Below are positions 7,462 to 27,781 of a stretch of 64,000 nucleotides of DNA, in pieces. Position numbers and translations under genes: made by a program. Numbering within the stretch: position 1 is the stretch's first letter; every line of letters starts with the position of its first letter. This DNA is from Spirochaetia bacterium. GTDB taxonomy: Bacteria; Spirochaetota; Spirochaetia; UBA9216. The stretch is from positions 1,664,001-1,728,000 of the forward strand of contig CAXXYH010000003.1 of NCBI GenBank assembly GCA_963677925.2, given 5' to 3'. The notes beneath the pieces are model-generated. The model searched no databases. It saw only the letters and a program-made list of their open reading frames with translations, and was not told where the DNA came from.

Positions 7462-7469
7462 AAGTTTCT

Positions 7470-8618: not shown

Positions 8619-8639
8619 AGTATCTCTCCCGGCCATCTC

Positions 8640-10151: not shown

Positions 10152-10162
10152 TTATCCTCTCC

Positions 10163-10645: not shown

Positions 10646-10655
10646 CCCTTATAGT

Positions 10656-10693
10656 AATTGCCCCAACTCCCCGTGCCGGGAATTGGGGCAATT
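10656..10693 (-). other. stem-loop between tctC and tctB (mRNA stabiliser or partial terminator)
   Basis: AATTGCCCCAA (10656-10666) and TTGGGGCAATT (10683-10693) are perfect inverted arms; no long U tract. Confidence 0.65.
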
Positions 10694-10708
10694 TAAAATC
10701 AAATGTGC

Positions 10709-14081: not shown

Positions 14082-14107
14082 AAAAAAAGACCGGCATCGG
14101 CTGCCGG
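14082..14107 (-). terminator. intrinsic terminator downstream of the sugar/dehydrogenase operon
   Basis: Minus strand reads CCGGCA-GCCGA-TGCCGG-TC-T7. Confidence 0.7.
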
Positions 14108-14267
14108 CCAAAAGAAATCTCCACCCGCTTCTTGATGGATGAAACACCGGAACGCCTGGGTAGGGGCTTCCCGGTGTTTTTGCATAATATTTTTTTTCAT
14201 AAAAATATTATGCGTGTAAATCTATGGTAAGAATTAAAAAACTGAAGTTATTTAATTCTATTATACT

Positions 14268-15683
14268 TTAGTACTCTCTGATTTCGAAGTTCTGAGCTAT
14301 CAGTTTCCGGCCTTCCTCGTATGAGGAAACTTCACCGGCTGATACAGCCTGAATCAGAATATTTCCGAGGGCTGTTGCTTCTACAGGCCCGGCAAGAACA
14401 GGGCGTTTGAGAGCCTCAGCCGTCCATGTGTTTATAAGATCATTCTGACAGCCTCCGCCGATAATGTTCAGCTGCTCTACCCTCTTTCCGGTAATCTCCT
14501 CAAGTTTTCCGACTGTTTTCGCATATTTGTCGGCAAGGTTTCTGAATACGCATGCGGCAACCTCACCGGGGTTTGAAGGAACATCAGTTCCGGCATCTCT
14601 GCAGTACTGAATTATTCTGTCCGGCATGCTTCCGTCTGTAAGGCTTGATTTTAAAAACAGCGGATCATCAAGATCCACAGGCCAGTCCGCTGTACGAGCC
14701 TTCTCTGCCAGGCTTACTATCTCACCCCAGCCGAGTTCGTTGCCGCTCTTGTCCCAGTCGGCCTTGCATTCCTGAATAACCCAGAGGCCCATAATATTCT
14801 TAAGGTAGGTAATAAGCCCCTCTCGGCCGCCTTCATTGGTAAAATTGTACTTGAAACTGAGATCATTGATGATAGGCTTCTCAAGCTCAACACCAAGCAG
14901 CGACCAGGTGCCCGAACTCAGGTATGCGGCGTTTCCGCTGCCGGTATACGGCATTGCCGCAACCGCAGATGCCGTATCGTGGCAGGCCGGAGCGGTCACA
15001 ACAACATCGGAAGGCGCACCTATTTCGGCAGCTTCCTCAGGCAGGAGCTTTCCTATTACCGCGCCCGGAAGGACAACATCGCTGAAAATCTCCGGTTTAA
15101 ACCCGGCTGCGGTAATCAGGCTTTCAGACCACTTGCGGGTTTCAGGATTAAGAAGCTGAGTCGTTGATGCCTCTGAAAACTCGTTGCTTATTACGCCTGT
15201 AAGCCAGTAGTTGAGCAGATCCGGTACGGTCAGAAAATGCCTTGCAGCGGCAACCGTTTCAGGAGATTTTCTACTGTGGGCCAGCAGCTGAAAAATGGTA
15301 TTGAGCTGCATGAACTGAATACCGGTTTCCTTGTATATATCCTCTTTGGGAACAAGCTTAAAAAACTCTTCCTCCATACCGTCAGTCCTGCTGTCGCGGT
15401 AGTGGTATGGGTTGGAGATGAGGTCTCCGTTTTTATCAAGCAGGGCATAATCAACACCCCAGGTATCAATTCCAATACTTTTTATCTGATTTCCGTATTT
15501 ATCAAAGGCTTCCTTAAGTCCCTTCTTGATGTCCGTAAACAGGGCAAGAAAATCCCAGTATATTGTATCTTTGATCCTGACAACACGGCTTGGAAACCTT
15601 GTCATGATCTCTATCCCGTAGAGATCACCGACAATCACCCTGCCGCTTGATGCCCCCAGGTCTACAGCTATAAACTTCCTCAT
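14268..15683 (-). CDS. rhaB: rhamnulokinase (FGGY family)
   Basis: AVDLGASSGRV, GIDTWGVDY, YHYRDSRT, ETGIQFMQLNTIFQL, HDTASAV, SSGTWSLLG, FTNEGG, KNIMGLW, GPVEATALGN. Confidence 0.88.
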   Translation of the reverse strand: MRKFIAVDLGASSGRVIVGDLYGIEIMTRFPSRVVRIKDTIYWDFLALFTDIKKGLKEAFDKYGNQIKSIGIDTWGVDYALLDKNGDLISNPYHYRDSRTDGMEEEFFKLVPKEDIYKETGIQFMQLNTIFQLLAHSRKSPETVAAARHFLTVPDLLNYWLTGVISNEFSEASTTQLLNPETRKWSESLITAAGFKPEIFSDVVLPGAVIGKLLPEEAAEIGAPSDVVVTAPACHDTASAVAAMPYTGSGNAAYLSSGTWSLLGVELEKPIINDLSFKYNFTNEGGREGLITYLKNIMGLWVIQECKADWDKSGNELGWGEIVSLAEKARTADWPVDLDDPLFLKSSLTDGSMPDRIIQYCRDAGTDVPSNPGEVAACVFRNLADKYAKTVGKLEEITGKRVEQLNIIGGGCQNDLINTWTAEALKRPVLAGPVEATALGNILIQAVSAGEVSSYEEGRKLIAQNFEIREY

Positions 15684-15698
15684 AAATCAACCGCTCCC

Positions 15699-16796
15699 TT
15701 ATTTTAACATTATCTGGCCGCCGGTTACCGGGAGGGCCTGTCCTGTTTCGTATTTCTGTTCTACAAGATAGAAAACAGCCTTTGACACATCAACAGGATT
15801 ACAGCCCCGGCCCATGGGAACCTTTGCCTCGTAGAATTCTTTTACATCCGCAATTGTCTTCGCACCAGGCACCTTTCCTGCGTTCAAATACTGAACAAAA
15901 AGTCCCCTTTCCGGATCCGACCAGAGAGGGCCTTCGAAGAAGTTCCCCGGACATATTGAGTTGACCTTGATATTGTCTGTTATCAGTTCCAGAGCAAAAC
16001 TCTGGGTAAGGCCGATTCCGCCGAACTTGCCGCCGGCATAGGCGCCGTTCTTGTTTGAACCTTCAAGCCCTGACTTTGAGTTTATCTGAATAACATCGGA
16101 GTAATAGTTTTTGCCGATTGATTCCGCACCCCGGTTCTGCTCAGCCATCAGGCGTGAGGCGAACTTGGTGCAGATGAAGTAGCCGGTGTAGTTTACCTTT
16201 GTCACAAACTCAAAATCTCCGAGATTCATCTCTTTAACGCTCCCGGCCTTAAGAACTCCGGCGTTGTTGATGAAAATATCAATTCCGCCCTTTTTCAGAG
16301 CAATGGTATTCATCATCTGTTCAACAGAAGCTTCATCAGCAACATTGACCTCGACGGCATCGCAGCATTCCCTGCCAATGGCCTTATTAGTCTGTGCGGC
16401 AAACTCCTGTGCACCCTTAAGGTTCATGTCGGCAACAAATACAAAGATATCCTTCTTTACCAGCTGTTCTACAATGCCTGCACCGAAACCCTGGGCGCCT
16501 CCGGTAACTACTGCGATCTTGCCTGCAAGGCCTGAAGGCCATCCGTCGCGCAGGGATGTGCTGATAGCAAAAGAACCCAGCCCGTCAACTGAAACAGCCT
16601 CAGGGACAGTATTATTGGCGGTAATATAGTCATTGTAGAGCTTACCGGGATTCTCAAAAAATGCGTCCGCATCCTTTACCGAAAGAACACCCGTTCCTGA
16701 TTTTACTTCCGGGCTGAAAGTAACAGCAGCTCCTGTTTCACCGTTATATGTAAGCCCGCGGATCAGCGGTGCTATAGCTTCTGCTTTTATGCTCAT
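15699..16796 (-). CDS. SDR oxidoreductase, sorbitol-6-phosphate 2-dehydrogenase-like, with ~90 aa N-terminal extension
   Basis: TGGAQGFG, NNAG, IQINSKSG..GS.KN.AYAGGKFGGIGLTQSFALEL (SrlD-type signature), KVPMGRGC. Confidence 0.85.
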   Translation of the reverse strand: MSIKAEAIAPLIRGLTYNGETGAAVTFSPEVKSGTGVLSVKDADAFFENPGKLYNDYITANNTVPEAVSVDGLGSFAISTSLRDGWPSGLAGKIAVVTGGAQGFGAGIVEQLVKKDIFVFVADMNLKGAQEFAAQTNKAIGRECCDAVEVNVADEASVEQMMNTIALKKGGIDIFINNAGVLKAGSVKEMNLGDFEFVTKVNYTGYFICTKFASRLMAEQNRGAESIGKNYYSDVIQINSKSGLEGSNKNGAYAGGKFGGIGLTQSFALELITDNIKVNSICPGNFFEGPLWSDPERGLFVQYLNAGKVPGAKTIADVKEFYEAKVPMGRGCNPVDVSKAVFYLVEQKYETGQALPVTGGQIMLK

Positions 16797-16797
16797 T

Positions 16798-18135
16798 TTA
16801 TGCTCCTATTAAATCGATTATATTTTCAGGATTAAAAAGATCCATCTTTTTTCCGGCCGCAGCATAGAACTCCATTCTTTCGGAAAGCGGCTTTGATGCG
16901 AATTCCCCTTCAGGATTGAATAGCGCATAAGATTCGTCGGCAGAGGCAAGATGCTCGTGAGCAATAAGAGTCCATGTTGCATCGATAAGATGTGTGAACT
17001 CGGGCTGAAGAATTTCAGGGCATCTGAAAACCTGTCTTGACGAGTTGATATCAACACCGCTGATCTGCATGAACTCATGATTATCGCAGAGAGCCTGTAC
17101 CCGAAGAAGCTGCTTAACAGTGTTTCTCGGCGGCATGTATGTTACAGCCTTGAAGCCTGTTTTTTTCAGTATTTCAAACAGTTCATCAAGATAATCATCT
17201 TCAAACTTTTCAGCCTTCTTGTCACCGGTAGGGCTTTCGGCAACATCGCCGAGGTAGGCATACGAAGGAATAGCATTAATACTGTTGGCAAATGCCACAA
17301 CCTTATCTGCGGCCGGACATTCAGCCTCATTAGGCTGGATAAAAAAAGACGGAACAAGATTGCTCTTTAGAATTCCCAGCAGATCATAAACATAGTGGGG
17401 ATTTTCCTGGTCGAGAAGGAAGCCTTTGATTTTATCAGTCAGCGGTATTCCCAGCTTATCAGCTACAAAATCGACAGTTCCCTGTCCTTTTCCGGCAGCT
17501 TCAATAATTTTGAGACTTAATGCATAAAGGATATGACGCTCGGTAACACCTCCGCCGTCTGCAGATTCGGAAATTGCAAGCACATCCTTCTCAAAATCCA
17601 GGGGTTCAAGAACTCCCTGAGGCAGGATGCTGTTGAGTTTTTCAACCTCCGCCCGGTTTCTGAGATTCCTCTCTTCCCTTATAGGCTTGATAAATTCCGC
17701 TACTTCCGCAAAGCGGCTGTGGGGAACGCCGTGAATACAGATGTATGCGCTGTTTATTGTGTCCGGGTTGTTAATCTTCCTGGTTTCAAGTGAAGTGCCT
17801 GAAAAGTTGACCCGAAGTTCAAATCCGGTTGTCGAACCGATGCCTATGGATTTACAGGCTTCAACCATCTCTGCGGCCGCTCCGATACTGTCATGATCAA
17901 CACTGCCGGCAGCCTTCAGCCCTGATGCCCAGGCCATGAATGCAGCTTTTGAGGGTGAGTAGGGACTGAATGAATAGATTGTATGAATATGATTATTCAC
18001 CTCATCGGTCTTTTCGTTTGCAAGCTTTCCGCTTTTAATCATATCCCCTATTGCAGAAGCAGCAGCCAGACGCTCGGTCCGGCTGCTGCTGTTGAGTTGC
18101 TCTAATAATACTTTTCCGGGATCGGTATTTATCAT
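16798..18135 (-). CDS. PHP-domain metalloprotein
   Basis: [20 protein letters not shown] and TERH motifs; terminal motif reads SGVDINS. Confidence 0.8.
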
Positions 18136-20591
18136 ACACCTTCCCTCTGGGATCTGAGGAGCTCTCCGTTGGTCTGAACAGATGAAGAGCTGTGACCTGA
18201 AAGCGGAATTATGTTTTCATCAATAGCATCGATGATCCACTTTGATGTCGGGAAGAAGTAGTCTTCCATCTCTGCCGGCGGTGTGATCCAGTTCTTTGAA
18301 CCGACAACTACCGGAGGAGCATCAAGGTAATCAAATGCAAGTCTGCTGATATTTGATGCAATGTTGTGGAGGTATGAACCTCTCTCGCTTGCGTCTGATG
18401 AAAGAACAACCTTACCGGTCTTCTTAACAGACTCGATGATCTTGTCATAGTTAAGCGGATTGATAAATCTGAGGTCGATAACCTCTGCACTCATTCCGTA
18501 TTTTTCCTGAAGCTCATCGGCAGCCTTGACTGCTTCATACAGTGTGGCACCGATAGTGATAATAGTTAAATCGCTTCCGGTTCTTCTGACTGCCGGTTCG
18601 CCTTCTTCAATTTCATAGTAGCCTTCAGGAACACCGGCTTTTTCAAACTCTTCTCCTACGCCGTAGAGTTTCTGGCTTTCAAAGAAGATAACAGGGTCTG
18701 TTCCGCTGAGTGCCAGGTTAAGCATACCCTTTGCGTCATAAGGAGTTGCGGGAAACATTGCCTTGAGTCCCGGAATGTGGGCTACAAGGGCCGACCAGTC
18801 CTGTGAGTGCTGTGCGCCGTACTTGTTTCCGACAGAAACGCGGAGGACAAGCGGCATTCTCAGCTCTCCGCCGGACATTGACTGCCACTTGGGCATCTGG
18901 TTGAAGACCTCGTCACCTGATCTTCCGAGGAAGTCGCAGTACATAAGTTCAACCATTGCACGTCCGCCGCTCATAGCGTAGCCTACTGCAGAACCGACTA
19001 TTGCACCCTCTGAGATGGGTGAATTGAACAGTCTGTGGTACGGAAGCGCTTCTGTAAGACCGCGGTATACGGCAAAGGCTCCGCCCCAGTCACGGTTTTC
19101 TTCACCGTATGCGACCAGTGTAGGGTCGGTATAGAAGCCGTGAACTGCTGCTTCAAAAAGCGCGTCACGGTACACAAACTGCTTTGATGCGGGAATCTTG
19201 TTTCCGGCTTCATCGAAGGCGTACCTGATCTTTTTCGCGTTAGCCTTTACTCTCGGGTTCTCTTCAAGAGGCATAAGAACTTCAGGCTCACGGTCATCTA
19301 GCTTTTCCATCTTTGTGTTTGAGAACATTACAGACTCTATGAACTTTCCGTCGACAAATCTTGAGATATTGTCGTCTATAGCAATCTTCATTGTGTTTGT
19401 TATTTTGCCGACAACCTTCTCTTTCAGGCTGTCTGAAGCCTTCTGATCAAAAACACCGTTTTCAATAAGGTACTTTTCAAAATTCTGAATTACATCAGCA
19501 TCCCTGAAAGCATCCATCTCTTCCTTGCTTCTGTAGGATGACGCATCAGAAGGTGAATGACCTGAGAGCCTGTAGGTAATTGTATCCATAAGAACAGGGC
19601 CCTTGCCTTCAAGCAGGAGTTTTTTCTTTCTGGACATTGCATCTGCAACTGCAAGAGGGTTGAATCCGTCTACACGTTCTGCATGCATATTGTCCGGGTT
19701 GACACCGGCGCCGATTCTCGCAGGCTCCTTGTAACCCATGGTTTCACCGTTTGTCTGGCCGCCCATCGCGTAGAAGTTATTGAAAATATTGAGCATGAAG
19801 GGAGGTGCACCGCCCAGGTCCTTGTCCCAGAGATTATTGTACTGGTCCATCGCGGCCAGCATCAGGCCTTCCCATACAGGGCCGCAGCCCATTGAGCCGT
19901 CGCCTATGTTGGCAATTACGATACCGGGCTTACGGTTGATTCTCTTGTAAAGGGCTGAACCGACGCTGATGTCGGCACTTCCGCCTACGATTGCGTTATT
20001 GGGCATGCTGCCGAAGGGGGCAAAGAAGGTGTGCATTGAACCGCCGAGGCCTCTGTTGAAACCGGGGGCTCTTGCGAAAATCTCTGCGAGTGCTCCGTAG
20101 AGAACAAAGTTCTCTGCAAGGTCTTTTACGTTATCGCCCTTGTGGTGCTTATCAACGATGCCTAAAGCTTCACCGTTCATGAAGCCTTCCATTGTTGATT
20201 TCAGGCTTGCTTCATCAAGCTTCTTGATAGCGGAAAAACACTTTGCAAGTATTTCACCGTGGCTTCGGTGTGAACCGAAGATAAAGTCGTCTGTATCAAG
20301 GACGGCGCACTGACCGACCGATGCGGATTCCTGACCGGCTGAAAGGTGTGCAGGGCCCTTGTGGTTGTATTCAAGACCGTTGTAGGAACCTTCCTTCTTG
20401 ATGAGATCGAGCATGGTTTCAAACTCGCGGATAATAAGCATGTCGTAGTACATGCCGATAAGGCCGTCTTTTCCGTACAGCTTAAGTTCTTTCTTGATAT
20501 CAGGCTTATACTGGTTAACCGGTATATCCTTTATTTTGATGGTGCCGGGTTTTCTTACCTCTTCCGGCCTTATTTCAAGTATTTTAGGCAT
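18132..20591 (-). CDS. fused E1 alpha/beta TPP-dependent dehydrogenase (acetoin/2-oxoacid dehydrogenase family)
   Basis: [26 protein letters not shown] motif, GHSPSD; beta part [30 protein letters not shown]. Confidence 0.9.
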
Positions 20592-20620
20592 TTGATAACT
20601 CCTTATAACTTAGCACCGGA

Positions 20621-21946
20621 TTAAAGCATCCAGCATACATCTTTGATAATTTCCGACACACTCGGGTGCGGGAAGATAATTTCTCTCATATCCTTTGTAC
20701 GAAGTTCCGCTTCAATTGCTGCAGCGGCTGTACCTATCATCTCTGAACAGACGGCGCCGATCATGTGAACGCCGAGAATCATGTCGGTATCGGCATCGGC
20801 TATAACCTTGCACATACCGGCTTCCTTTCCGTGTTCGGCGAGAAAGCGTCCGTTTGCCCTCATCTGCATGGCGGCAGATTTCACGTTGTATCCGGCGGCC
20901 TTTGCATCCTTTTCTGTGTATCCGCATCCGGCAACTTCAGGCAGTGAGTAGACAGCCCAGGGAACGGCGTTGTATCTCATTATTCCGCCTGCTCCGAACA
21001 TGTTCATCACGGCAACCTCACCCATTCTTGATGCCGAGTGGGCAAGCAGTGATTTTCCGGTAACATCGCCTACAGCATAAATGCCCGGGATATTGGTCCG
21101 CATGTGCTCGTCAACGGCAACGCCCTTCGGGCTGTAATCTATTCCAAGATTTTCGAAACCGCCTGTATTCGGGCGTCTTCCTACCGACATCAGGACAAGA
21201 TCAGCTTTTACGCTTTCCTTCTTTCCGTCCTTTTCATATTCAACGCCGTCGGCAGTAATAGCAGTAACCTTTGATGAAAGCAGGAAGTTAACCGCGCCCA
21301 TTTCCTTTCGCAGGAGCTTGGCGGTTTCTCCGTCCATCATCGGACATATCTCATCCATCATCTCAATAACGCTTACTTCAACGCCTACATTACTGAAGAA
21401 GGAAGCAAACTCAACGCCGATAACACCGCCGCCGATAACCGCCAGCTTTTTCGGCAGTTCTTCAAGCGCCAGAATTTCACGGTTTGTAACTACATTCGGT
21501 CCGTCAAATCCGGGAATAGGAGGAACGAAGGCAGAAGACCCGGTAGCGATAATCAGGTTCTCACCCTCGTATACAGTTTCGCCGACCTTCACCTTTTTCC
21601 CTCCGGGAAAAACGGCCTCACCGTAAACAACTTCAACCTTGCCCTGCTTCATCAGAAAGGCAATACCCTTGCGGAGGCTGTCAATGGTTTCATTCTTCCA
21701 GGCCATTGCCTCGGAAAAATTAAAGACCGGATTATCAAAATGAACGCCGAACTTTGCGGCTTCCTTTCCGTATGTAAAATGCTTTGCGGCATTCAGAAGA
21801 CTCTTTGTAGGAATACAGCCGTGGTTTGTGCAGACACCGCCAAGGTTCTCCTTTTCAACAAGCAGAACCTTCTTTCCCATATGGCCGGCACGCTCAGCGG
21901 CAACATAGCCTCCGGGACCGGCTCCAACAACTATCAAATCAAACAT
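20621..21946 (-). CDS. lpdA: dihydrolipoyl dehydrogenase (E3)
   Basis: GAGPGGYVAA, GGVCTNHGCIPTK, GGGVIG, HPSVSE. Confidence 0.93.
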   Translation of the reverse strand: MFDLIVVGAGPGGYVAAERAGHMGKKVLLVEKENLGGVCTNHGCIPTKSLLNAAKHFTYGKEAAKFGVHFDNPVFNFSEAMAWKNETIDSLRKGIAFLMKQGKVEVVYGEAVFPGGKKVKVGETVYEGENLIIATGSSAFVPPIPGFDGPNVVTNREILALEELPKKLAVIGGGVIGVEFASFFSNVGVEVSVIEMMDEICPMMDGETAKLLRKEMGAVNFLLSSKVTAITADGVEYEKDGKKESVKADLVLMSVGRRPNTGGFENLGIDYSPKGVAVDEHMRTNIPGIYAVGDVTGKSLLAHSASRMGEVAVMNMFGAGGIMRYNAVPWAVYSLPEVAGCGYTEKDAKAAGYNVKSAAMQMRANGRFLAEHGKEAGMCKVIADADTDMILGVHMIGAVCSEMIGTAAAAIEAELRTKDMREIIFPHPSVSEIIKDVCWML

Positions 21947-21966
21947 AATTCAAACTCCAGTAATTT

Positions 21967-23310
21967 CTACAGTGCGAGGTAGATCCCGATATTCTCAACC
22001 GCGGTCCTGATATCGGCACAGAACTTTGATGCCGGAGCACCGTCTGCAGCCTGATGATCATAGGTCAGTGAGAAGCCGATGTGATCACGGTACTCAACTC
22101 CGTTCGCTGTTCTCACAGGCTTAAGCTGGGTTGAGCAGACACCGAGTATTCCTATCTCCGGCGGATTAATAATCGGAGTAAAGCTGTCAATTCCAAAAGC
22201 GCCTACATTGCTGAGAGTGAAGGTGGCTCCTGTAAGTTCATCGGGCTGGGCCTTTCCTTCACGGCAGGCTGCAATAAGTCTTGCCGCTTCTGCGGAAAGC
22301 TCCTTCAGGCTGAGGCTGTCGGCATTCTTTATTACCGGAACAAGCAGACCCTTGGGAGTATCACATGCGAAACCGAGATGGACACTGTCAAAATATCTCA
22401 TTGTGTCGCCGAGCCAGTGGCAGTTGAACTCAGGATGAAGCTTCAGAACCCTAGAAGCGGCAAACATTACGATATCGTTTATGCTGACCTTTCCAAGACC
22501 GAGTTCTTCAGGAGAGTTCTTGAACTTTGCACGGTAGGCAAGAAGTTCGGTAGCATCTGCTGTAAAATTGTGTGTGAGCTGGGCTGTCATTGAAAGCGAT
22601 TCCATCATCCTCGCGGCGGTAATCTTTCTTACACCCTTAACCTTTTCATCCCTGAAAGCGCCCGGGAACGGCAGGGCTGCCGATGCGGAAGCTGCAGTAC
22701 CAGCTGCCGTAGAAGCAGCTGGTGCAGAGGAAAGGTCCTGAAGTCTGACCCTTCCGCCGATTCCAGTACCCTCTGCGGGTGCAGTAAGCCCCTGCTCTAT
22801 TGCAGCAGCAACAGCTGCAGGAGTAAGGGGTTCCTTTCCGGCAAGAGCACCTAAAACATCACGCTCAATTACACGTCCTCCGGGTCCGCTTCCTGCAAGG
22901 CCTGAAGCATCAAAGCCCTTTCCGGCAGCGAGGTTTCTTGCCCTGGGAGATACGAAGCTGTCTCCGCCGGTTGAGTTCACCGCAGGTGCAGCCTGGGCTG
23001 CCGCAGGTGCGGATGCGGAAGCACCGTCACCTGAGGCTGCAAACTCGGCTTCAAAGCTGCTTATATCTTCACCGGGTTCACCGATAACCGCCATCATTTT
23101 CTGTACAGGCACTTCGGTATCCGGTCCGTAAAAAATCTTTAGAATGGTACCTTCAGCAGTAGATTCAACCTCTATGGTTGCCTTGTCGGTCTCTGCCTCG
23201 CAGACTACATCACCGACATTAACCCGGTCGCCTTCCTTCTTCATCCATTCAAGAATGAGACAGGACTCTACCGAGTTACCCTGCTTTGGCATCAATAACG
23301 CTGTTGCCAT
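21967..23310 (-). CDS. dihydrolipoamide acyltransferase (E2)
   Basis: Single lipoyl domain (ETDKAT), E3-binding SPRAR..GSGPGGRV, FTLSNVG, TPIINPP, YDHQAADGA. Confidence 0.92.
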   Translation of the reverse strand: MATALLMPKQGNSVESCLILEWMKKEGDRVNVGDVVCEAETDKATIEVESTAEGTILKIFYGPDTEVPVQKMMAVIGEPGEDISSFEAEFAASGDGASASAPAAAQAAPAVNSTGGDSFVSPRARNLAAGKGFDASGLAGSGPGGRVIERDVLGALAGKEPLTPAAVAAAIEQGLTAPAEGTGIGGRVRLQDLSSAPAASTAAGTAASASAALPFPGAFRDEKVKGVRKITAARMMESLSMTAQLTHNFTADATELLAYRAKFKNSPEELGLGKVSINDIVMFAASRVLKLHPEFNCHWLGDTMRYFDSVHLGFACDTPKGLLVPVIKNADSLSLKELSAEAARLIAACREGKAQPDELTGATFTLSNVGAFGIDSFTPIINPPEIGILGVCSTQLKPVRTANGVEYRDHIGFSLTYDHQAADGAPASKFCADIRTAVENIGIYLAL

Positions 23311-23427
23311 ATTTCTCTCCTAATAATACATCAATCATTCTGCCGTGACGGCAGGTTCAAAAATGAAGTTTTAAAGCATAGCTTTCAAACTTCTGAAAAT
23401 CGAAAATACACGGATGTGTTCTCGATT

Positions 23428-24180
23428 TTAAACGATCTTCAGGTTAAGTCCTTTTTCTTCCATTTCAGCTCTGACCGTCTGGTCCAATCCCTCATCCGAA
23501 ATAATCAGGTCTGTACTCTCAAGCGGCAGGATTTTCACAAATCCCACCTTGTTGTATTTTCCCGAGTCAGCAAGAAGAACGGTCTTTTCCGACTGTCTGA
23601 CCATCTTTTTAATAATTTCGGAATTCTCAACAAGCTGGGTGGTCATCCCGCTTTGATAAGAGAATCCTTCCGTTCCGATAAAAGCAATTTTCACATGGTA
23701 GGCATCCAGCTGTCTGATTGGCTCCGGGCCCACAACAGCTTCAGCCATCGGACGGAATTCTCCGCCTACAAGCGTAAGGTTTATTGAAGGGTTCATCCTT
23801 GCATACGGAAGAAGCAGGGTTGAATTTGTTACTATTCTGATATCTCTTTTACCCAGGAGATAATTCCCGATATACGCAGTTGTCGTACCTGCACATATCA
23901 TAATGGAATCGCCGTCTTCAACCATTGAAGCAGCTTCCTTTGCAATCCTTCTTTTTACATCAGTCATATCCCTCTGACGCTCAAGAATCTCCGGATGCAT
24001 TGCCGGAACAGCCCCGCCCCGGGTTTTCACGAGCACGCCTTTTTCAACCAGACTGTTAAAATCGCTTCTGACAGTCACGGTTGAAACATTCAGCCGCTCG
24101 CTTATCTCCGAGACGCTGACCCTGCCCTCTTCAGACAGGATCTCAACTATCCGCCTTTCTCTTTCGGTTAAACTATGCAT
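23428..24180 (-). CDS. DeoR/GlpR family transcriptional regulator
   Basis: LNVSTVTVRSD, KTRGGA, AGTTT, VTNS, LADSGK. Confidence 0.92.
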   Translation of the reverse strand: MHSLTERERRIVEILSEEGRVSVSEISERLNVSTVTVRSDFNSLVEKGVLVKTRGGAVPAMHPEILERQRDMTDVKRRIAKEAASMVEDGDSIMICAGTTTAYIGNYLLGKRDIRIVTNSTLLLPYARMNPSINLTLVGGEFRPMAEAVVGPEPIRQLDAYHVKIAFIGTEGFSYQSGMTTQLVENSEIIKKMVRQSEKTVLLADSGKYNKVGFVKILPLESTDLIISDEGLDQTVRAEMEEKGLNLKIV

Positions 24181-24189
24181 GCCTTACCG

Positions 24190-25452
24190 CTAAATTGAGG
24201 TACTGTGAGCAAGAAGATATTTTTCAGCTTCAAGGTTCCACAAGCCGTTATGTTTCTTTACGAGCTTATCAAGTTCGGCAAAAACAGGGTCTGACTTGCC
24301 GAGTTCTTCAAAATCGGCAATTGCTGTAAGCGGCATGCTCTTCTGAACATAAATCAGTTTTTTGCCGCCGGGAATCTTGGGCAGATTGAGTGTTGTCTCG
24401 ACAACTGAATCAAGTCCGCCGATATGGGTTATCATCGATGCCGGATTAAGCTCTCCGCGTCCCATCATCTCAAGAGATTCACGCATATCGGCTGTGTTTC
24501 CGCCGCTTGTTCCTACAAGGTGATGGAACTCATAATGTACATTGTAAAAATTGAGTTCAGCTTTGAACTCTGTATTTGAAGGTCCTGCAAAGAAGTTCAG
24601 ACATCCGTCTTTTGTAAGGATTGAGTCTCCCTGTTCAATAAGAGGTTTCACAGGAGCCATAACCAGTACATCGTCGTAGCCTGCTCCGCCTGTCTGATCC
24701 ATAAGAAGCTTAACAGGATCTGATGTATCCTTTGTATTCAGATAGATGAGCTTTACACCGTTTTTGGCAGCCTCTTCGACGCTGTAGACTTCGGCTGCCC
24801 GTTTAAGTCGGGTGTCATCAATATCAGTGACAACAAGAAGCCCGGGTTTAACCGGATTATGTATGGCGTAATCTATTGCGCCAAGTCCCATCGGACCTAC
24901 ACCGGCGATAATTGCGAGATTTCCGCCTTCCTTGATACCCATGTTATGGATATAAGTGCCCTGGGGAATGTGATACATGGCATGATATGTCCCGACAATA
25001 CAGGAAACAGGTTCACTCAGTGATCCCATGAAGTAGGCATCTCCCTCATAAGGAAGAAGACAGTCCATTTCCATTACTTCGTTGGGAATCAGTATATTTG
25101 TCGCATCACCGCCGATGTAATGGAATGAATAGCCCGGAGCATCAAGGCTTCCCTTATAATTTAGTGCCGGCTGAATTGAAAACTTCTGGCCTGGTTTGAA
25201 CTTATCAGCCCATTTTGAACCTACTTCAAGAATCTCTCCGCAGAATTCATGGCCGATCATTGTAGGATTCTGCGCAACATCATCGGGAACCCTTTTATGT
25301 TCCGGCCCCTGGATAGCAGCCTTATATGAAGACATACAGATACTGTCTGAAATTACTGTTGCGAGTATTTCATCGTCTTTCATTGCCGGAAGCTCAAACT
25401 CCTCGAGCCTGAGGTCGTTCTTTCCGTATATTCGTACAGCTTTGGTTTTCAT
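24190..25452 (-). CDS. zinc-binding dehydrogenase, L-sorbose-1-phosphate reductase-like
   Basis: MKTKAVRIYGKNDLRLEEF, DSICMSSYK, GHEFCG, QPAL, GPMGLG, NFFAGP, NFYNVHY, GTSGG, IPGGKKLIY; GGAGG RBS. Confidence 0.88.
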   Translation of the reverse strand: MKTKAVRIYGKNDLRLEEFELPAMKDDEILATVISDSICMSSYKAAIQGPEHKRVPDDVAQNPTMIGHEFCGEILEVGSKWADKFKPGQKFSIQPALNYKGSLDAPGYSFHYIGGDATNILIPNEVMEMDCLLPYEGDAYFMGSLSEPVSCIVGTYHAMYHIPQGTYIHNMGIKEGGNLAIIAGVGPMGLGAIDYAIHNPVKPGLLVVTDIDDTRLKRAAEVYSVEEAAKNGVKLIYLNTKDTSDPVKLLMDQTGGAGYDDVLVMAPVKPLIEQGDSILTKDGCLNFFAGPSNTEFKAELNFYNVHYEFHHLVGTSGGNTADMRESLEMMGRGELNPASMITHIGGLDSVVETTLNLPKIPGGKKLIYVQKSMPLTAIADFEELGKSDPVFAELDKLVKKHNGLWNLEAEKYLLAHSTSI

Positions 25453-25516: not shown

Positions 25517-25626
25517 ATAATATTTACATTGGGTTTACATTGTCAAGTAAATCGCTATCACTTTTATATACATTGATGATTTTTTTAACTCCTTGACAAC
25601 CTTTTTATTCCTAGAATAATAAGTAT

Positions 25627-26055
25627 ATGCACAGACAACACGAATTCAAATGCAAAGCCCCCGTTCAGATACGTTTTGGGGATATTGACGGCCAGGGCCA
25701 TGTAAACAACGCTGTATACCAGAATTATTATGATATCGGGAGGGTAAAATACCTTTCCGAAATGCTTGGTGAACCATATATGCCCGGCGGCAAATCCCTG
25801 GTGGTGGCTTCGGTAAAAACTGATTTTCTTGCACCGGTTTTCCTGCATGATGATATAATAGTAGAATCTGCGGTGATCAAGATCGGCAATAAATCACTCA
25901 CAATGCTGCAGAGAATCAGGGAAAATCATACCGGTGAGATAAAATCCGACTGCACGACAATTTTTGCCGGCTACGATTATGACCGGGCTGAAACTATTGT
26001 AATACCGGACAGATACCGAAACGCAATAAAAGAGTACCAGAACAAGGAAGTGTAA
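25627..26055 (+). CDS. acyl-CoA thioesterase (4HBT/YbgC hotdog family)
   Basis: IRFGDIDGQGHVNNAVY. Confidence 0.9.
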   Translation: MHRQHEFKCKAPVQIRFGDIDGQGHVNNAVYQNYYDIGRVKYLSEMLGEPYMPGGKSLVVASVKTDFLAPVFLHDDIIVESAVIKIGNKSLTMLQRIRENHTGEIKSDCTTIFAGYDYDRAETIVIPDRYRNAIKEYQNKEV

Positions 26056-26056
26056 A

Positions 26057-27775
26057 ATGTTTGAAAAGGCAATGTTTGAAGCTGAATATTCCGCTGACGG
26101 AGTCAGACATACGGTTGTAATGCCGTTTCAGGCTCTTGTCAACTCAGAAGCTGTAGGCTTCAACCTGAGCCATTCAAATGACGGGAAACGGGAAAGCATA
26201 AAGGTATCAGTCATTCCCAGAGCGGAAATAAAGATTCACCGGCTTGAGCTGGTTGCTGAGTATGAATTCCATCAGGATGAAAAAATATTCCTCAACGGCT
26301 ACCAGAGCTGGACTGACAGTGCAGAACACGGCCTTCAGGACAGACAGAAGGGAATTCCCCTTTTAGGAAGAATAGTAAACCCCTACTTTCAGCTGCGGAA
26401 ATACGGAGACTATGATTTCATCCGTCAACCCTCTGCTCCCGGCGAGTTTCACGGTTTTTCGTATGGATATATTAAAAAGCAGGGCTCAAACCAGATTACT
26501 CTTCTTGGTTCTCTGAATGAACAGAACGCCTTCACTGTAATACGTTTTACAGCTGCTGCAAAAGAAATCCGTGTGAGCATGGAATGCAACAACCTTGCCA
26601 CCGACAAACCGGTAACAGCACTTCAACTCCTCTGTGTAACTGATGAGGAAAATAAGGCTTTCGATCAGTGGTTTTCAGCAATGGAGCTGCCGGCGGTAAA
26701 AACTCCCGAAATTACCGGATGGACCTCATGGTACGACCACTATGAAAATATCAGCAGTGACATAATCAATCAGAATCTCGAAGCCTTTACCAACACGAAT
26801 CTCCCTATAGAAATATTCCAGATAGATGACGGTTTTCAGACCGCAACAGGAGACTGGCTGAGCATTGACAAAGCAAAATTCCCCGAAGGGCTTGCCCCGG
26901 TGGTAGACCGTATTCATAAAAGCGGGTATAAGGCCGGATTATGGCTCGCTCCCTTTTCAGCCCAGAAGAACTCAGAGCTTGCAAAACAGCACCCGGAATG
27001 GCTCCTGAGGGATGGCAAAGGGAAGCCGGTTCAGGCAGGCATCAACTGGGGCGGTTTTTACGCTCTTGATATATACAATCAGGAGTTCAGGGACCATCTT
27101 GCTGAAGTTTTCAATACAGTTCTGAATGAGTGGGGCTTTGATATGGTCAAGCTTGACTTCCTCTACGGAGCCTGCCTTGCGCCGGAAACTCAGGGAAGAA
27201 CAAGAGGCGCGGTTATGCATGACGGTATGAAACTTCTGCGGGAACTCACCGGCAGTAAGCTGATTCTCGGCTGCGGAGTTCCGCTTGCTTCGGCATTCGG
27301 ATTGGTCGACTACTGCAGAATCGGCTGCGATGTCAGCCTTGACTGGGACGACGGGTTCAGGGGCAGCCAGATTCACCGGGAGAGACCCTCAACACTGAAC
27401 TCACTTGCAAATGCAATAGGCCGGAGGCATCTTGACGGCAGGGCCTTCAGAAACGATCCGGATGTATTCATATTAAGAGACAGAAATACAAAACTAAGCG
27501 GCGCCGAAAAAGAAACCCTGTTCAGAATCAACGCAGTTACCGGTGCTCTTGTTTTTACATCCGACAATGTTGCGGAATACAGTGACACAAGAAAGAAGAT
27601 GTTTGAATCTCTGAAGGCAAAAAAGAAAATTGAATCTGTCGAGTCTGACAGCGGAACCTATACGATCAGCTATACTGAGGGTGGAAAAGAACATATTCTA
27701 TTCGCAAACCTCTCAGATAAGACCATTTTCTACAGCGGTCTCGAGGTTCCCGCTCACTCCTCAGTTATTTTGTAG
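26057..27775 (+). CDS. alpha-galactosidase, glycoside hydrolase family 36
   Basis: NGYQSW, GWTSWY, FQIDDGFQ, GLWLAPF, VKLDFL, RIGCD, NDPD. Confidence 0.88.
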   Translation: MFEKAMFEAEYSADGVRHTVVMPFQALVNSEAVGFNLSHSNDGKRESIKVSVIPRAEIKIHRLELVAEYEFHQDEKIFLNGYQSWTDSAEHGLQDRQKGIPLLGRIVNPYFQLRKYGDYDFIRQPSAPGEFHGFSYGYIKKQGSNQITLLGSLNEQNAFTVIRFTAAAKEIRVSMECNNLATDKPVTALQLLCVTDEENKAFDQWFSAMELPAVKTPEITGWTSWYDHYENISSDIINQNLEAFTNTNLPIEIFQIDDGFQTATGDWLSIDKAKFPEGLAPVVDRIHKSGYKAGLWLAPFSAQKNSELAKQHPEWLLRDGKGKPVQAGINWGGFYALDIYNQEFRDHLAEVFNTVLNEWGFDMVKLDFLYGACLAPETQGRTRGAVMHDGMKLLRELTGSKLILGCGVPLASAFGLVDYCRIGCDVSLDWDDGFRGSQIHRERPSTLNSLANAIGRRHLDGRAFRNDPDVFILRDRNTKLSGAEKETLFRINAVTGALVFTSDNVAEYSDTRKKMFESLKAKKKIESVESDSGTYTISYTEGGKEHILFANLSDKTIFYSGLEVPAHSSVIL

Positions 27776-27781
27776 GTAATT

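What the first reader, a model, noticed from the sequence alone, without database searches (positions are those of the whole stretch)
14268..25452. Candidate new sugar-catabolic pathway: ketose kinase + carbonyl-shifting reductase/dehydrogenase pair + TPP/lipoate dehydrogenase complex, with no aldolase
Seen: eight co-directional, mostly tightly packed genes (SorE-like reductase, DeoR, E2, E3, fused E1ab, PHP, SrlD-like SDR, rhamnulokinase) and no intact class II aldolase or lactaldehyde reductase. Established: RhaB/FucK make 6-deoxy-ketose-1-P. SorE followed by SorD/SrlD moves a carbonyl along the chain (L-sorbose-1-P to glucitol-6-P to fructose-6-P). Acetoin dehydrogenase (AcoABCL) cleaves CH3-CO-CHOH-R to acetyl-CoA plus R-CHO. 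Inference: applying the SorE/SrlD shift to rhamnulose- or fuculose-1-P gives a 1-deoxy-ketohexose-6-P, which is a phosphorylated acetoin analogue. The E1/E2/E3 complex could cleave it to acetyl-CoA + tetrose-4-P + NADH, so deoxy-sugars would be used without making lactaldehyde or 1,2-propanediol. With a non-deoxy ketose the acyl product would be glycolyl-CoA. I know of no characterised pathway with this logic.
Basis: partly seen in the sequence, partly recalled or inferred. Interest (0 to 1): 0.9.

Follow-up and report, generated by a model that had tools for sequence, protein, structure and literature searches.

The report
Deoxy-sugar operon with dehydrogenase complex
A conserved eight-gene operon in spirochaetes ties rhamnose and fucose breakdown to its own pyruvate-dehydrogenase-like complex, which points to an undescribed way of splitting deoxy-sugars that has not been tested at the bench.

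Summary
Window 14268-25452 (minus strand) is one tight operon: SorE-like zinc reductase, DeoR, E2, E3, fused E1 alpha-beta, a PHP-fold protein, an SrlD/RhaW-like SDR and the genome's only rhamnulokinase-like kinase. No class II aldolase lies in the window.

The module is conserved as a unit. Among 80 E1-centred genome loci, PHP is present in 60 of 70 loci long enough to show it, SDR in 53 of 61 and ZnADH in 42 of 54. It is tied to L-rhamnose and L-fucose: RhaA/RhaE-like or FucI/FucU genes lie within 10 kb in 26 of 80 loci. All 12 module-bearing genomes of 251 sampled have RhaA and/or FucI, against 45 of the other 239.

One 99%-complete genome has FucU-ABC-FucI beside the module and no class II aldolase at all.

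Against the 'no aldolase' reading, every rhamnose-type case carries an aldolase-like RhaE homologue, and in one genome it is fused to the module's SDR.

The carbonyl-shift plus thiamine/lipoate cleavage route fits best but is inferred (about 0.4). The role of PHP and the fate of the tetrose product are open. I found no paper describing this.

The parts
25517..25546 (-). promoter-like site (TTGACA-18-TATTAT) upstream of the ZnADH gene
   Evidence: 11 of 12 consensus positions. This is a consensus match only.
24190..25452 (-). Zn-dependent medium-chain dehydrogenase/reductase, 420 aa, SorE-like; inferred ketose-1-phosphate reductase
   Evidence: Pfam ADH_N and ADH_zinc_N. Best PDB matches are sorbitol dehydrogenase and ketose reductase, and they are weak. 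GHE motif at residue 67. Orthologues are 62-68% identical in 10 of the 11 other module genomes; in the source collection the listed relatives reach 99%. Some are named L-sorbose 1-phosphate reductase by sources. A 54% paralogue sits in a PTS/PfkB operon.
23428..24180 (-). DeoR-family repressor; inferred to sense a sugar phosphate
   Evidence: HTH_DeoR and DeoRC. Present in 47 of 55 loci with room to show it.
21967..23310 (-). E2 dihydrolipoyl acyltransferase (lipoyl, E3-binding and catalytic domains)
   Evidence: Lipoyl-lysine motif DKA at residues 42-44; catalytic motif reads DHQAADG, with Gln where the canonical motif has Arg. Present in 56 of 58 loci.
20621..21946 (-). E3 dihydrolipoyl dehydrogenase
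   Evidence: TIGR01350 489 bits, above the cut-off of 409. Motifs CTNHGC and HPSVSE. Present in 68 of 72 loci.
18132..20591 (-). fused E1 alpha-beta thiamine-diphosphate component, 819 aa
   Evidence: E1_dh, Transket_pyr and Transketolase_C. All NCBIfam PDH scores are below their cut-offs. The GDG...NN motif carries an insertion. 293 relatives found in species-representative genomes. Orthologues score above 1050 bits and paralogues at most 414 bits.
16798..18135 (-). PHP-fold metal-dependent protein, 445 aa; role unresolved. Its start overlaps the E1ab stop by 4 bp.
   Evidence: No Pfam hit. AF2 pLDDT 93.9. Foldseek matches 3o0f, 2yb1 and RNase AM. Invariant H49, H51, D80, H81, E106, H201, D362 and H393. 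The Asp of the HxH...SDG motif is Phe here. Present in 60 of 70 loci.
15699..16796 (-). SDR, 365 aa: a folded N-terminal domain of about 80 residues plus an SrlD/RhaW-like dehydrogenase; inferred sugar-alcohol-phosphate dehydrogenase
   Evidence: PRK12384 223 bits; TIGR02632 C-terminal half 131 bits. 5o3z 152 bits against 97 for the next match. TGxxxGxG, NNAG and YxxxK motifs. The N-terminal domain is modelled with confidence. 63% identical to the SDR half of a RhaE-SDR fusion in G244.
14268..15683 (-). FGGY kinase, rhamnulokinase-like; inferred L-rhamnulose (and perhaps L-fuculose) 1-kinase
   Evidence: TIGR02627 463 bits, below the cut-off of 528. It is the only such gene in the genome; the next best scores 74 bits.
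14089..14109 (-). terminator-like hairpin with a T-run after the kinase gene
   Evidence: 8 pairs, 6 of them G-C. This is a consensus match only.

Best explanation
The eight genes form one DeoR-controlled operon. It is the common lower part of L-rhamnose and L-fucose catabolism in this spirochaete and many relatives. I put this general claim at about 0.8.

The isomerases (RhaA, FucI) and transporters are encoded elsewhere. The operon's kinase makes the 6-deoxy-L-ketohexose 1-phosphate.

Most likely mechanism (all steps inferred):
1. The SorE-like Zn reductase reduces C2.
2. The SrlD-like SDR oxidises the alcohol next to the methyl end. Together these two steps move the carbonyl and give a 1-deoxy-ketohexose 6-phosphate, a phosphorylated acetoin analogue.
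3. The dedicated thiamine/lipoate complex (fused E1, E2, E3) cleaves it oxidatively to acetyl-CoA, NADH and a tetrose 4-phosphate.

Rhamnulose-1-P and fuculose-1-P differ only at C4, and C4 becomes the aldehyde carbon, so both sugars converge on the same products.

The aldolase-like RhaE homologue that always travels with RhaA would adapt rhamnulose-1-P to the module, for example by retro-aldol/aldol C4 epimerisation, or it would form a parallel branch.

The PHP protein is an obligatory partner of unknown role. It could process the tetrose phosphate or act as a regulatory phosphatase of the complex.
For: Operon structure: tight spacing and bracketing signals.

Conservation, counted over the loci long enough to show each partner: E3 68 of 72, E2 56 of 58, DeoR 47 of 55, PHP 60 of 70, SDR 53 of 61, ZnADH 42 of 54, a kinase 29 of 48, and all seven partners 20 of 40. 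Among 80 PHP-centred metagenome loci, many of them short, E1ab is seen in 60 and SDR in 60.

Link to deoxy-sugars:
- RhaA, FucI, FucU and an aldolase-like gene are the commonest extra neighbours.
- 26 of 80 loci carry rhamnose or fucose genes within 10 kb.
- All 12 genomes with an orthologous E1ab, out of 251 sampled in the phylum, have RhaA and/or FucI, against 45 of the other 239.
- In this genome RhaA, RhaE-like and a rhamnose ABC binding protein lie together without a kinase, and FucI stands alone with a LacI-type regulator. The only rhamnulokinase-like gene is the operon's.
- Lipoate ligase genes lie beside the module in 5 loci and transketolase in or beside it in 3.

Aldolase-independent fucose route:
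- G185 (99% complete) has FucU, ABC transporter and FucI adjacent to DeoR-E2-E3-E1ab-PHP-SDR-kinase-ZnADH-LplA, and no PF00596 match in the genome.
- Of 14 FucI/FucU-linked loci, only 1 has an aldolase-like ORF.

Sugar-phosphate chemistry:
- The SDR's nearest solved structure is sorbitol-6-P dehydrogenase.
- Sources name ZnADH orthologues SorE, and its paralogue lies with PTS EIIA and a 1-PFK/tagatose-6-P-kinase-like gene.
- DeoR regulators and PHP enzymes also point to phosphorylated ligands.

A third complex: the genome has two other unfused E1 alpha/beta sets, so this complex is an extra, pathway-linked one.

From recall, not from any call: SorE plus glucitol-6-P dehydrogenase perform such a shift on L-sorbose-1-P, and acetoin dehydrogenase cleaves CH3-CO-CHOH-R.
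Against: No enzyme activity or metabolite was measured. Every substrate is inferred from family resemblance, and all specific NCBIfam scores are below their cut-offs.

An aldolase-like RhaE homologue with the aldolase-type Glu and three His accompanies RhaA or a RhaI-like isomerase in all 10 module genomes that have one. It lies in the operon in 10 of 80 metagenome loci. It is fused to the module's SDR in G244. By homology to RhaEW (PMC3870299) the SDR could therefore be a lactaldehyde dehydrogenase, and the sugar could be split by an aldolase.

Most FucI-bearing module genomes do have unassigned class II aldolases elsewhere. G185 has one class II FBP-aldolase-family gene 5 kb from FucI.

The predicted tetrose would be D-threose-4-P or L-erythrose-4-P (my own Fischer-projection reasoning). 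That needs further enzymes that I could not name.

PHP has no assigned step. In 4 of 80 metagenome loci its orthologue follows a Ser/Thr protein kinase instead.

Some loci hold E2-E3-E1ab without the other genes nearby (L012, L025, L027, L029, L045). In G057 neither ZnADH nor SDR was found at my thresholds (93% complete).
Confidence: 0.4

Rival explanations
1. Aldolase-first route. A class II aldolase (the RhaE homologue for rhamnose, some FucA-like enzyme for fucose) splits the ketose-1-P into DHAP and L-lactaldehyde. The module's SDR, as a RhaW orthologue, oxidises lactaldehyde to L-lactate. The rest of the module takes the C3 unit to pyruvate and acetyl-CoA, so the complex is a dedicated pyruvate dehydrogenase.
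For: The RhaE-like protein matches the aldolase half of bifunctional aldolase/SDR families (136 bits) and keeps Glu plus three His. It is fused to an SDR 63% identical to the window's in G244, and it lies between PHP and SDR in several metagenome loci. RhaEW of B. subtilis and C. aurantiacus gives DHAP plus L-lactate (PMC3870299, passages read). The E1's best NCBIfam hits are PDH E1 subunits.
Against: G185 has the fucose locus and the module but no class II aldolase, and 13 of 14 fucose-linked loci show none. A SorE-like Zn reductase has no natural role here; its paralogue sits in a PTS/ketose-phosphate kinase operon. PHP and DeoR have no phosphorylated ligand after the split. The SDR scores higher against sorbitol-6-P dehydrogenase (223 bits) than against the RhaEW family (131 bits). 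From general knowledge, NAD-linked lactate oxidation is unfavourable in fermenters, and these usually use pyruvate:ferredoxin oxidoreductase.
Confidence: 0.22
2. Same module, different regiochemistry. After reduction of C2, the SDR oxidises C4, the carbon that RhaW oxidises in RhaEW. The thiamine enzyme then cleaves C3-C4, giving glyceraldehyde-3-P (or DHAP) plus lactyl-CoA instead of tetrose-4-P plus acetyl-CoA.
For: The SDR is orthologous to the SDR half of a RhaE-SDR fusion. In the RhaEW assays neither DHAP nor lactate appeared without NAD+ (PMC3870299, passage), which would fit oxidation before cleavage; that reading is mine. This route avoids the tetrose stereochemistry problem and also merges the two sugars, because C4 loses its chirality.
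Against: The SrlD analogy places the oxidised carbon four bonds from the phosphorylated carbon, which is C5 and not C4 (recalled SrlD chemistry; family match). No lactyl-CoA-handling genes were seen in the clusters. Transketolase lies in or beside the operon in 3 loci, which suits a tetrose-P product better. PHP remains unexplained.
Confidence: 0.13
3. Chance neighbours: an ordinary 2-oxoacid (pyruvate or branched-chain) dehydrogenase operon that happens to lie next to sugar genes, with no shared pathway.
For: Source names include '2-oxoisovalerate dehydrogenase E1 component'. In L012, L025, L027, L029 and L045 the E2-E3-E1ab genes stand without PHP, SDR or ZnADH nearby.
Against: The gene order is kept across Spirochaetia, Kiritimatiellia-type, Victivallales and KSB3 records. 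The PHP start overlaps the E1ab stop. All 12 module genomes have RhaA and/or FucI. The genome already has two other E1 sets.
Confidence: 0.04

Closest known systems
L-sorbose pathway enzymes SorE (L-sorbose-1-P reductase) and glucitol-6-P dehydrogenase SorD/SrlD (recalled from the literature)
   Same: A long (about 410-420 aa) Zn-dependent reductase and an SDR related to sorbitol-6-P dehydrogenase stand side by side behind a step that makes a ketose-1-P. Together they could move a carbonyl from one end of the chain to the other (family matches).
   Different: There is no sorbose PTS; the ketose-1-P comes from an FGGY kinase. The genomic context is rhamnose and fucose. The scores are below the family cut-offs. 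The product would be a 1-deoxy-ketose phosphate, not fructose-6-P.
Acetoin dehydrogenase complex AcoABCL and other 2-oxoacid-dehydrogenase-type complexes (mechanism recalled)
   Same: Thiamine-dependent E1, lipoyl E2 and flavoprotein E3. Acetoin dehydrogenase cleaves a methyl alpha-hydroxyketone to acetyl-CoA plus an aldehyde, which is the reaction type proposed here.
   Different: E1 alpha and beta are fused in one 819-aa chain with an insertion in the TPP motif. E2 has a full catalytic domain with DHQxxDG. Only its lipoyl part matches the acetoin E2 family (79 bits, cut-off 307). The proposed substrate is a sugar phosphate. A PHP protein is an obligatory neighbour.
RhaEW bifunctional L-rhamnulose-1-P aldolase / L-lactaldehyde dehydrogenase (PMC3870299; passages read)
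   Same: The genome's RhaA-adjacent 372-aa protein matches the RhaE half, and the module's SDR matches the RhaW half. In G244 the two are one 653-aa protein inside the module.
   Different: The halves are split in this genome and RhaE is missing from fucose-type loci. The RhaE homologues keep Glu where, according to the paper, bona fide RhaE has Asp. Scores are far below the cut-offs (92-136 and 131 bits against 568-831). RhaEW operons have no ZnADH, PHP or E1/E2/E3.
Classical RhaBAD and FucIKA aldolase pathways to DHAP plus L-lactaldehyde (textbook)
   Same: The same isomerases (RhaA, FucI), the mutarotase FucU and a RhaB-like kinase.
   Different: No RhaD or FucA equivalogue was found above cut-off in this genome. 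In G185 no class II aldolase was found at all. Five extra enzymes are present.
Other routes that handle 1-deoxy- or 5-deoxy-sugar phosphates: DXP synthase chemistry, the RubisCO-like-protein shift of methylthioribulose-1-P to methylthioxylulose-5-P, and LsrG/LsrF cleavage of phospho-AI-2 to DHAP plus acetyl-CoA (all recalled, not checked here)
   Same: They are precedents for moving a carbonyl along a deoxy-ketose phosphate and for releasing the methyl-ketone end as an acetyl unit.
   Different: The enzyme families are different: an isomerase, a thiolase-like aldolase and DXS. None uses a lipoate-dependent complex, and none acts on rhamnose or fucose.

Membership tests
2-oxoacid dehydrogenase-type multienzyme complex | E1 with a thiamine-diphosphate fold (E1_dh, Transket_pyr, Transketolase_C) | tested here: met
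   GDG...NN motif with an insertion
2-oxoacid dehydrogenase-type multienzyme complex | E2 with a lipoyl domain, an E3-binding domain and an acyltransferase domain with catalytic His | tested here: met
   DKA lipoyl motif and DHQAADG, with Arg replaced by Gln
2-oxoacid dehydrogenase-type multienzyme complex | E3 dihydrolipoyl dehydrogenase | tested here: met
   TIGR01350 489 bits, above the cut-off of 409
Pyruvate dehydrogenase complex (specific) | E1 and E2 reach the curated equivalogue scores | tested here: not met
   E1 beta part 229 bits against 321 and 225 against 454; E1 alpha part 169 against 394; E2 284 against 445
Pyruvate dehydrogenase complex (specific) | substrate is a 2-oxoacid | not testable with these tools
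   needs an enzyme assay
Acetoin dehydrogenase AcoABCL | E2 of the AcoC type; separate AcoA and AcoB | tested here: not met
   NF011457 matches only residues 2-262 (79 bits against 307); E1 is fused
SorE L-sorbose-1-P reductase | long Zn-dependent MDR acting on a ketose-1-P | tested here: inconclusive
   The domains, GHE motif and length fit, some sources use the name and the paralogue sits in a PTS/PfkB operon. No curated model matched above 69 bits, and no activity data exist.
Sorbitol-6-P dehydrogenase SrlD | reaches the curated score; classical SDR motifs | tested here: not met
   PRK12384 223 bits against 307. The motifs are present and the nearest PDB entry is 5o3z. There is an extra N-terminal domain.
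RhaEW aldolase/dehydrogenase | class II aldolase domain fused to an SDR, encoded in a rha locus | tested here: not met
   In this genome the two parts are separate genes 1.6 Mb-scale apart on different contigs, and scores are below the cut-offs. The fused form does exist in G244.
Rhamnulokinase RhaB | reaches the curated equivalogue score | tested here: not met
   TIGR02627 463 bits against 528. It is still by far the best match in the genome; the next scores 74 bits.
PHP (polymerase and histidinol phosphatase) phosphoesterases | PHP fold with HxH, DH, E, H and D...H metal ligands | tested here: inconclusive
   The fold is met and HxH, DHD and GxE align with 3e0f. The Asp after HxH is Phe, and the late D-x-H reads D-I-N (ligand roles recalled). 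There is no Pfam hit at E 0.001.
Classical deoxyhexose aldolase pathway | RhaD or FucA aldolase present | tested here: inconclusive
   There is no equivalogue above cut-off in the genome, but it has 8 PF00596 proteins, among them a RhaE-like one beside RhaA. G185 has none.

The most novel reading that the evidence does not exclude
Spirochaetes and some fucoidan-associated lineages degrade L-fucose and L-rhamnose without the classical aldol split. A kinase, a SorE-like reductase and an SrlD-like dehydrogenase turn the 6-deoxy-ketose-1-P into a 1-deoxy-ketose-6-P. A dedicated lipoate/thiamine complex with a fused E1 then cleaves it to acetyl-CoA, NADH and a tetrose phosphate. This would be the first 2-oxoacid-dehydrogenase-type complex known to act on a sugar phosphate. 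The PHP protein would be a new enzyme or regulator of that step. The route would avoid lactaldehyde and propanediol and gain ATP from acetyl-CoA.
Probability: 0.4. Interest if true: 0.9.

Novelty: new variant of a known kind. Interest (0 to 1): 0.78.

Why it matters
L-fucose and L-rhamnose are major sugars of algal fucoidans, plant pectins and mucins. The textbook anaerobic fate is lactaldehyde, then 1,2-propanediol, often inside microcompartments.

A widespread alternative would change carbon and energy budgets assumed for deoxy-sugar fermentation in sediments, guts and termite hindguts. It would also change the meaning of 'PDH/BCKDH' annotations in anaerobes. Such a route would yield acetyl-CoA without free lactaldehyde.

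It would also extend the substrate range of lipoate-dependent complexes to sugar phosphates and give the PHP family a new partner.

The claim can be tested directly in cultured carriers named by the sources: Sphaerochaeta pleomorpha and Gracilinema caldarium.

Even if the aldolase-first rival is right, a pathway-dedicated dehydrogenase complex with a fused E1 inside a deoxy-sugar regulon is not described in the papers I could search.

Tried and rejected
No earlier notes were used.

2. Literature. Ten searches in all combined terms on rhamnulokinase/lipoamide, 1-deoxy/rhamnulose/acetyl-CoA, 6-deoxy/thiamine/lipoamide, RhaEW, fucitol/1-deoxy-tagatose, spirochaete/acetoin dehydrogenase, Sphaerochaeta/propanediol, threose-4-phosphate and Kiritimatiellia/fucose. 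None listed a paper describing this cluster or route. That covers only the held library, and subscription papers are missing. I read passages of PMC3870299 and PMC7356697; of all other papers I saw the listing only. Supplements are closed, so Figures S6 and S7 of PMC3870299 (RhaEW distribution and alignment) were not seen.

3. PMC7356697 reports that Pontiella strain F1 ferments L-fucose to acetate, H2, ethanol and lactate, that strain F21 also makes 1,2-propanediol, and that fucK was not identified in either. I did not check whether these strains carry the module, so this is a lead only.

4. Search for distant PHP relatives in another context. The 80 loci kept were all 50-68% identical orthologues, so it gave more instances of the module rather than an independent clue. 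The exception was 4 loci where PHP follows a Ser/Thr kinase.

5. BLASTP of the SDR's N-terminal 92 residues against the RhaE-like protein was not significant (E 3.1). A shared V-x-G-x-G-x-F-A pattern is suggestive only.

6. Complex prediction of the RhaE-like protein with the SDR gave no verdict.

7. Paralogous fused E1ab genes (36-38% identity) in 21 other genomes of the phylum sample: the six regions I fetched showed no module genes, so I dropped them.

8. Loci with E2-E3-E1ab but other neighbours (L012, L025, L027, L029). The neighbours are regulators, transporters, a glutamate-dehydrogenase-like gene, AtuA and peptidases, plus an alpha-L-fucosidase in L025. There was no consistent alternative partner.

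9. Small genes beside the module in L068 and L020 are an inorganic pyrophosphatase and a HAD phosphatase. These were not informative.

10. I considered a MtnB-like dehydratase or an AraD-like epimerase role for the RhaE homologue. The alignment shows Glu, as in aldolases, and not the Asp of this genome's AraD. That does not settle the matter.

11. Rows dropped before counts. In one search a locus was counted for a partner only if the contig extended far enough, and identity floors of 35-60% were applied. In some searches tblastn hits covering less than 40-50% of the query were ignored. My ORF filter hid some true genes under longer spurious frames (for example RhaA in L126, and the SDR and ZnADH in L125); these were recovered by tblastn.

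Full report
**What is there.** The minus strand of window 14268-25452 carries eight ORFs with almost no spacing. Gaps are -4 to 29 bp, apart from 117 bp between DeoR and E2.
- A 420-aa Zn-dependent medium-chain dehydrogenase.
- A DeoR regulator.
- An E2 with lipoyl, E3-binding and catalytic domains.
- An E3 above its curated cut-off.
- An 819-aa protein that joins the E1 alpha and beta parts.
- A 445-aa protein without a Pfam match.
- A 365-aa SDR whose best family is sorbitol-6-P dehydrogenase.
- An FGGY kinase whose best family is rhamnulokinase.

The 445-aa protein folds with high confidence (pLDDT 93.9). It matches PHP phosphoesterases: 3o0f/3e0f, the pAp phosphatase 2yb1 and RNase AM. A promoter-like and a terminator-like site bracket the eight genes. 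Catalytic motifs of E2, E3, the SDR and the ZnADH are intact. E2 reads DHQAADG instead of the usual DHR..DG, and the E1 TPP motif carries an insertion. No class II aldolase lies in the window.

**Organism and copy number.** The window lies in a 5.04-Mb genome whose closest E1ab relatives are from Spirochaetia. The genome has two further, unfused E1 alpha/beta sets, so this is a third, extra complex.

**Is the cluster a unit?** A scan of one genome per species found 293 stretches encoding an E1ab relative, and the best 80 were kept. They are mostly Spirochaetia, plus records labelled Tichowtungia, Pontiellaceae, Victivallales and KSB3/Moduliflexus. I counted only loci long enough to show each partner:

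| Partner | Present |
|---|---|
| E3 | 68 of 72 |
| E2 | 56 of 58 |
| DeoR | 47 of 55 |
| PHP | 60 of 70 |
| SDR | 53 of 61 |
| ZnADH | 42 of 54 |
| a kinase | 29 of 48 |
| all seven | 20 of 40 |

Clustering all 1034 ORFs of these loci showed that nothing else is widely conserved. A second, PHP-centred scan of metagenomes returned 80 loci, many of them short. E1ab is seen in 60, SDR in 60 and ZnADH in 41. In more distant variants (E1ab about 60% identical) the same six enzymes recur in other orders. The core is E1ab, E2, E3, PHP, SDR and ZnADH. The kinase type and the regulator vary.

**What sugar?** The commonest additional neighbours are L-rhamnose isomerase RhaA with a class II aldolase-like gene and an AraC regulator; L-fucose isomerase FucI with the mutarotase FucU; lipoate-protein ligase; and, in three loci, transketolase. 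With more sensitive queries:
- 14 of 80 loci carry FucI/FucU.
- 13 carry RhaA or RhaE-like.
- 26 carry at least one of the two sets.

In a sample of 251 genomes of the phylum, 12 have an orthologous E1ab (above 1050 bits; the next class scores at most 414 bits). All 12 have RhaA and/or FucI (9 each; in G077 FucI is in fragments and a RhaI-like isomerase is in the cluster). Of the other 239 genomes, 45 do. These genomes are related to one another, so this is an association, not a statistic.

In the window's own genome:
- RhaA, a RhaE-like protein and a rhamnose ABC binding protein (above cut-off) lie together on another contig without a kinase.
- FucI stands alone behind a LacI-type regulator.
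- The only rhamnulokinase-like gene is the one in the operon (462 bits; the next scores 74).

The operon is therefore the shared lower half of rhamnose and fucose catabolism. I hold this general reading at about 0.8.

- Fucose-type loci show no aldolase-like ORF. Only 1 of 14 does, and that one sits beside RhaA.
- Genome G185 (99% complete, 70 contigs) has FucU, an ABC transporter and FucI directly beside DeoR-E2-E3-E1ab-PHP-SDR-kinase-ZnADH-LplA. It has no PF00596 match anywhere. It has one DeoC and one class II FBP aldolase, the latter 5 kb from FucI and probably glycolytic.
- The window's genome has no RhaD or FucA equivalogue above cut-off.

- All 10 module genomes that have RhaA or a RhaI-like isomerase also have a low-scoring class II aldolase-like 'RhaE' homologue, usually next to the isomerase.
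- 10 of 80 metagenome loci read RhaA-aldolase-kinase-E2-E1ab-PHP-SDR-ZnADH.
- In G244 a 653-aa protein between PHP and ZnADH joins a full RhaE homologue (37% identical to this genome's) to an SDR 63% identical to the window's.
- The RhaE homologues keep the three zinc His and a Glu, as aldolases do. This genome's AraD has Asp at that position.
- This is the architecture of RhaEW, which was shown in vitro to turn L-rhamnulose-1-P and NAD+ into DHAP and L-lactate (PMC3870299, passages).
- The same paper notes that bona fide RhaE has Asp at that position, and that neither DHAP nor lactate appeared without NAD+.
- The window's genome also holds five unassigned class II aldolase-family proteins and one AraD.

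**Mechanism.** Four observations point to phosphorylated sugar intermediates beyond the kinase step:
- A DeoR regulator.
- A ZnADH that sources call SorE, and whose 54% paralogue lies with a PTS EIIA and a 1-phosphofructokinase/tagatose-6-P-kinase-like gene.
- An SDR whose nearest solved relative by a wide margin is sorbitol-6-P dehydrogenase (152 bits against 97).
- A PHP-fold protein.

1. The kinase makes the ketose-1-P.
2. ZnADH reduces C2.
3. The SDR oxidises C5.
4. The complex cleaves the resulting methyl alpha-hydroxyketone to acetyl-CoA plus a tetrose-4-P.

The SorE/SrlD and acetoin-dehydrogenase chemistries are recalled from the literature, and none of these steps was tested here.

I add three points of inference.
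- Rhamnulose-1-P and fuculose-1-P differ only at C4, which becomes the aldehyde carbon. Both sugars would therefore give the same products, which explains why one module serves both isomerases.
- C3 of both sugars has the configuration opposite to C2 of D-erythrose-4-P. The tetrose would therefore be D-threose-4-P (with SorE-like stereochemistry) or L-erythrose-4-P, and would need further conversion. Transketolase in or beside the operon in 3 loci fits a tetrose-P product only loosely.
- The strict pairing of RhaE homologues with RhaA, and not with FucI, would fit an enzyme that adapts the C4 epimer. It would equally fit a true aldolase.

**Rivals.**
1. Aldolase-first. RhaE plus SDR act as a split RhaEW giving DHAP and lactate, and the complex acts as a dedicated PDH. 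The G244 fusion supports this. G185, the SorE-like enzyme, PHP and thermodynamics speak against it.
2. The same module with oxidation at C4, giving triose-P plus lactyl-CoA. The RhaW homology supports this and it avoids the tetrose problem. No lactyl-CoA genes were seen.
3. Chance neighbourhood, which the conservation makes unlikely.

My odds are 0.40, 0.22, 0.13 and 0.04. The remainder is for chemistry I have not thought of.

**PHP.** PHP is a core member; its start overlaps the E1ab stop. Its metal site keeps HxH, DH, E and further His/Asp residues but has lost at least one canonical ligand (ligand roles recalled). In 4 of 80 metagenome loci (two of them near-identical contigs) an equally close orthologue follows a Hanks-type Ser/Thr kinase with 10-nt gaps or an overlap. 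That raises the alternative of a protein phosphatase regulating the complex. I cannot decide between a catalytic and a regulatory role.

**Known or new?** Nine literature searches found no description of this cluster or route in the held library. The enzyme families and reaction types all have precedents, so I rate it a new variant of known kinds rather than categorically new. If the cleavage of a sugar phosphate by a lipoate-dependent complex is confirmed, it would be a new pathway of wide distribution.

**Verdict.**
- Observation: confirmed.
- Interpretation: partly supported. The module and its deoxy-sugar link are well supported. The 'no aldolase' claim is true for fucose-type loci and untrue as a general statement. 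The chemistry is plausible but untested.
- Interest: 0.78.

Noticed in passing
L169:5433-10347, L170 (same coordinates), L190:3211-6894, L205:21-3383: Orthologues of the PHP protein (54-56% identical) lie directly after a large Hanks-type Ser/Thr protein kinase (PknA/PknB-like, 151 bits). The gaps are 10 nt or the genes overlap, and no module genes are nearby.
   Followed up: partly
G000:C3:483639-484889 (locus L221:8713-14548): A 54% paralogue of the ZnADH sits in an operon with a PTS EIIA-like protein, a probable PTS permease and a PfkB kinase that resembles 1-phosphofructokinase and tagatose-6-P kinase. This looks like a second ketose-phosphate route.
   Followed up: partly
21 genomes of the phylum sample, e.g. 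L119-L124: A second family of fused E1 alpha-beta proteins (36-38% identical, 760-790 aa) occurs in up to three copies per genome. No E2, E3 or module genes were seen in the six regions examined. In one of them a DeoR-like gene is adjacent, as in the KSB3 loci L039 and L053.
   Followed up: partly
window 21967-23310 and 18132-20591: The E2 catalytic motif reads DHQAADG, with Gln where Arg is usual. The E1 TPP motif GDG...NN carries an insertion of about 12 residues. I did not check whether either is conserved in all orthologues.
   Followed up: no
window 15699-16796 (SDR residues 1-80): The SDR's N-terminal extension is a confidently modelled small alpha/beta domain (pLDDT about 95). It is conserved in length but weakly in sequence, and it is present also in fucose-type genomes that lack RhaE. 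In G244 its place is taken by a whole RhaE domain.
   Followed up: partly
L132 (G077:C42): A variant cluster adds a lipoate ligase, a radical-SAM protein (possibly lipoyl synthase), an ASRT-family small protein and a xylose-isomerase-like TIM-barrel protein with a weak RhaA match.
   Followed up: partly
window 6589-11704: A TctABC tripartite tricarboxylate transporter lies beside a galactonate/mannonate-dehydratase-like enolase-superfamily gene and a subclass-B3-like metallo-beta-lactamase-fold gene (158 bits, below the cut-off of 240). A divergent LysR regulator is at 11861-12811.
   Followed up: no
window 25627-28504: Divergent from the operon are a 142-aa ORF, a 572-aa glycoside hydrolase with weak Melibiase/GH31 matches and an MBL-fold protein. 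These are shared only with the 97%-identical relative L009, not with other loci.
   Followed up: partly
L012:7866-17499: In one relative the DeoR-E2-E3-E1ab genes are followed by a GntR regulator, a sugar ABC transporter, two Fe-ADH genes, a DeoC/LacD-family aldolase and another FGGY kinase. This gene set is reminiscent of AI-2 (Lsr)-type processing.
   Followed up: no
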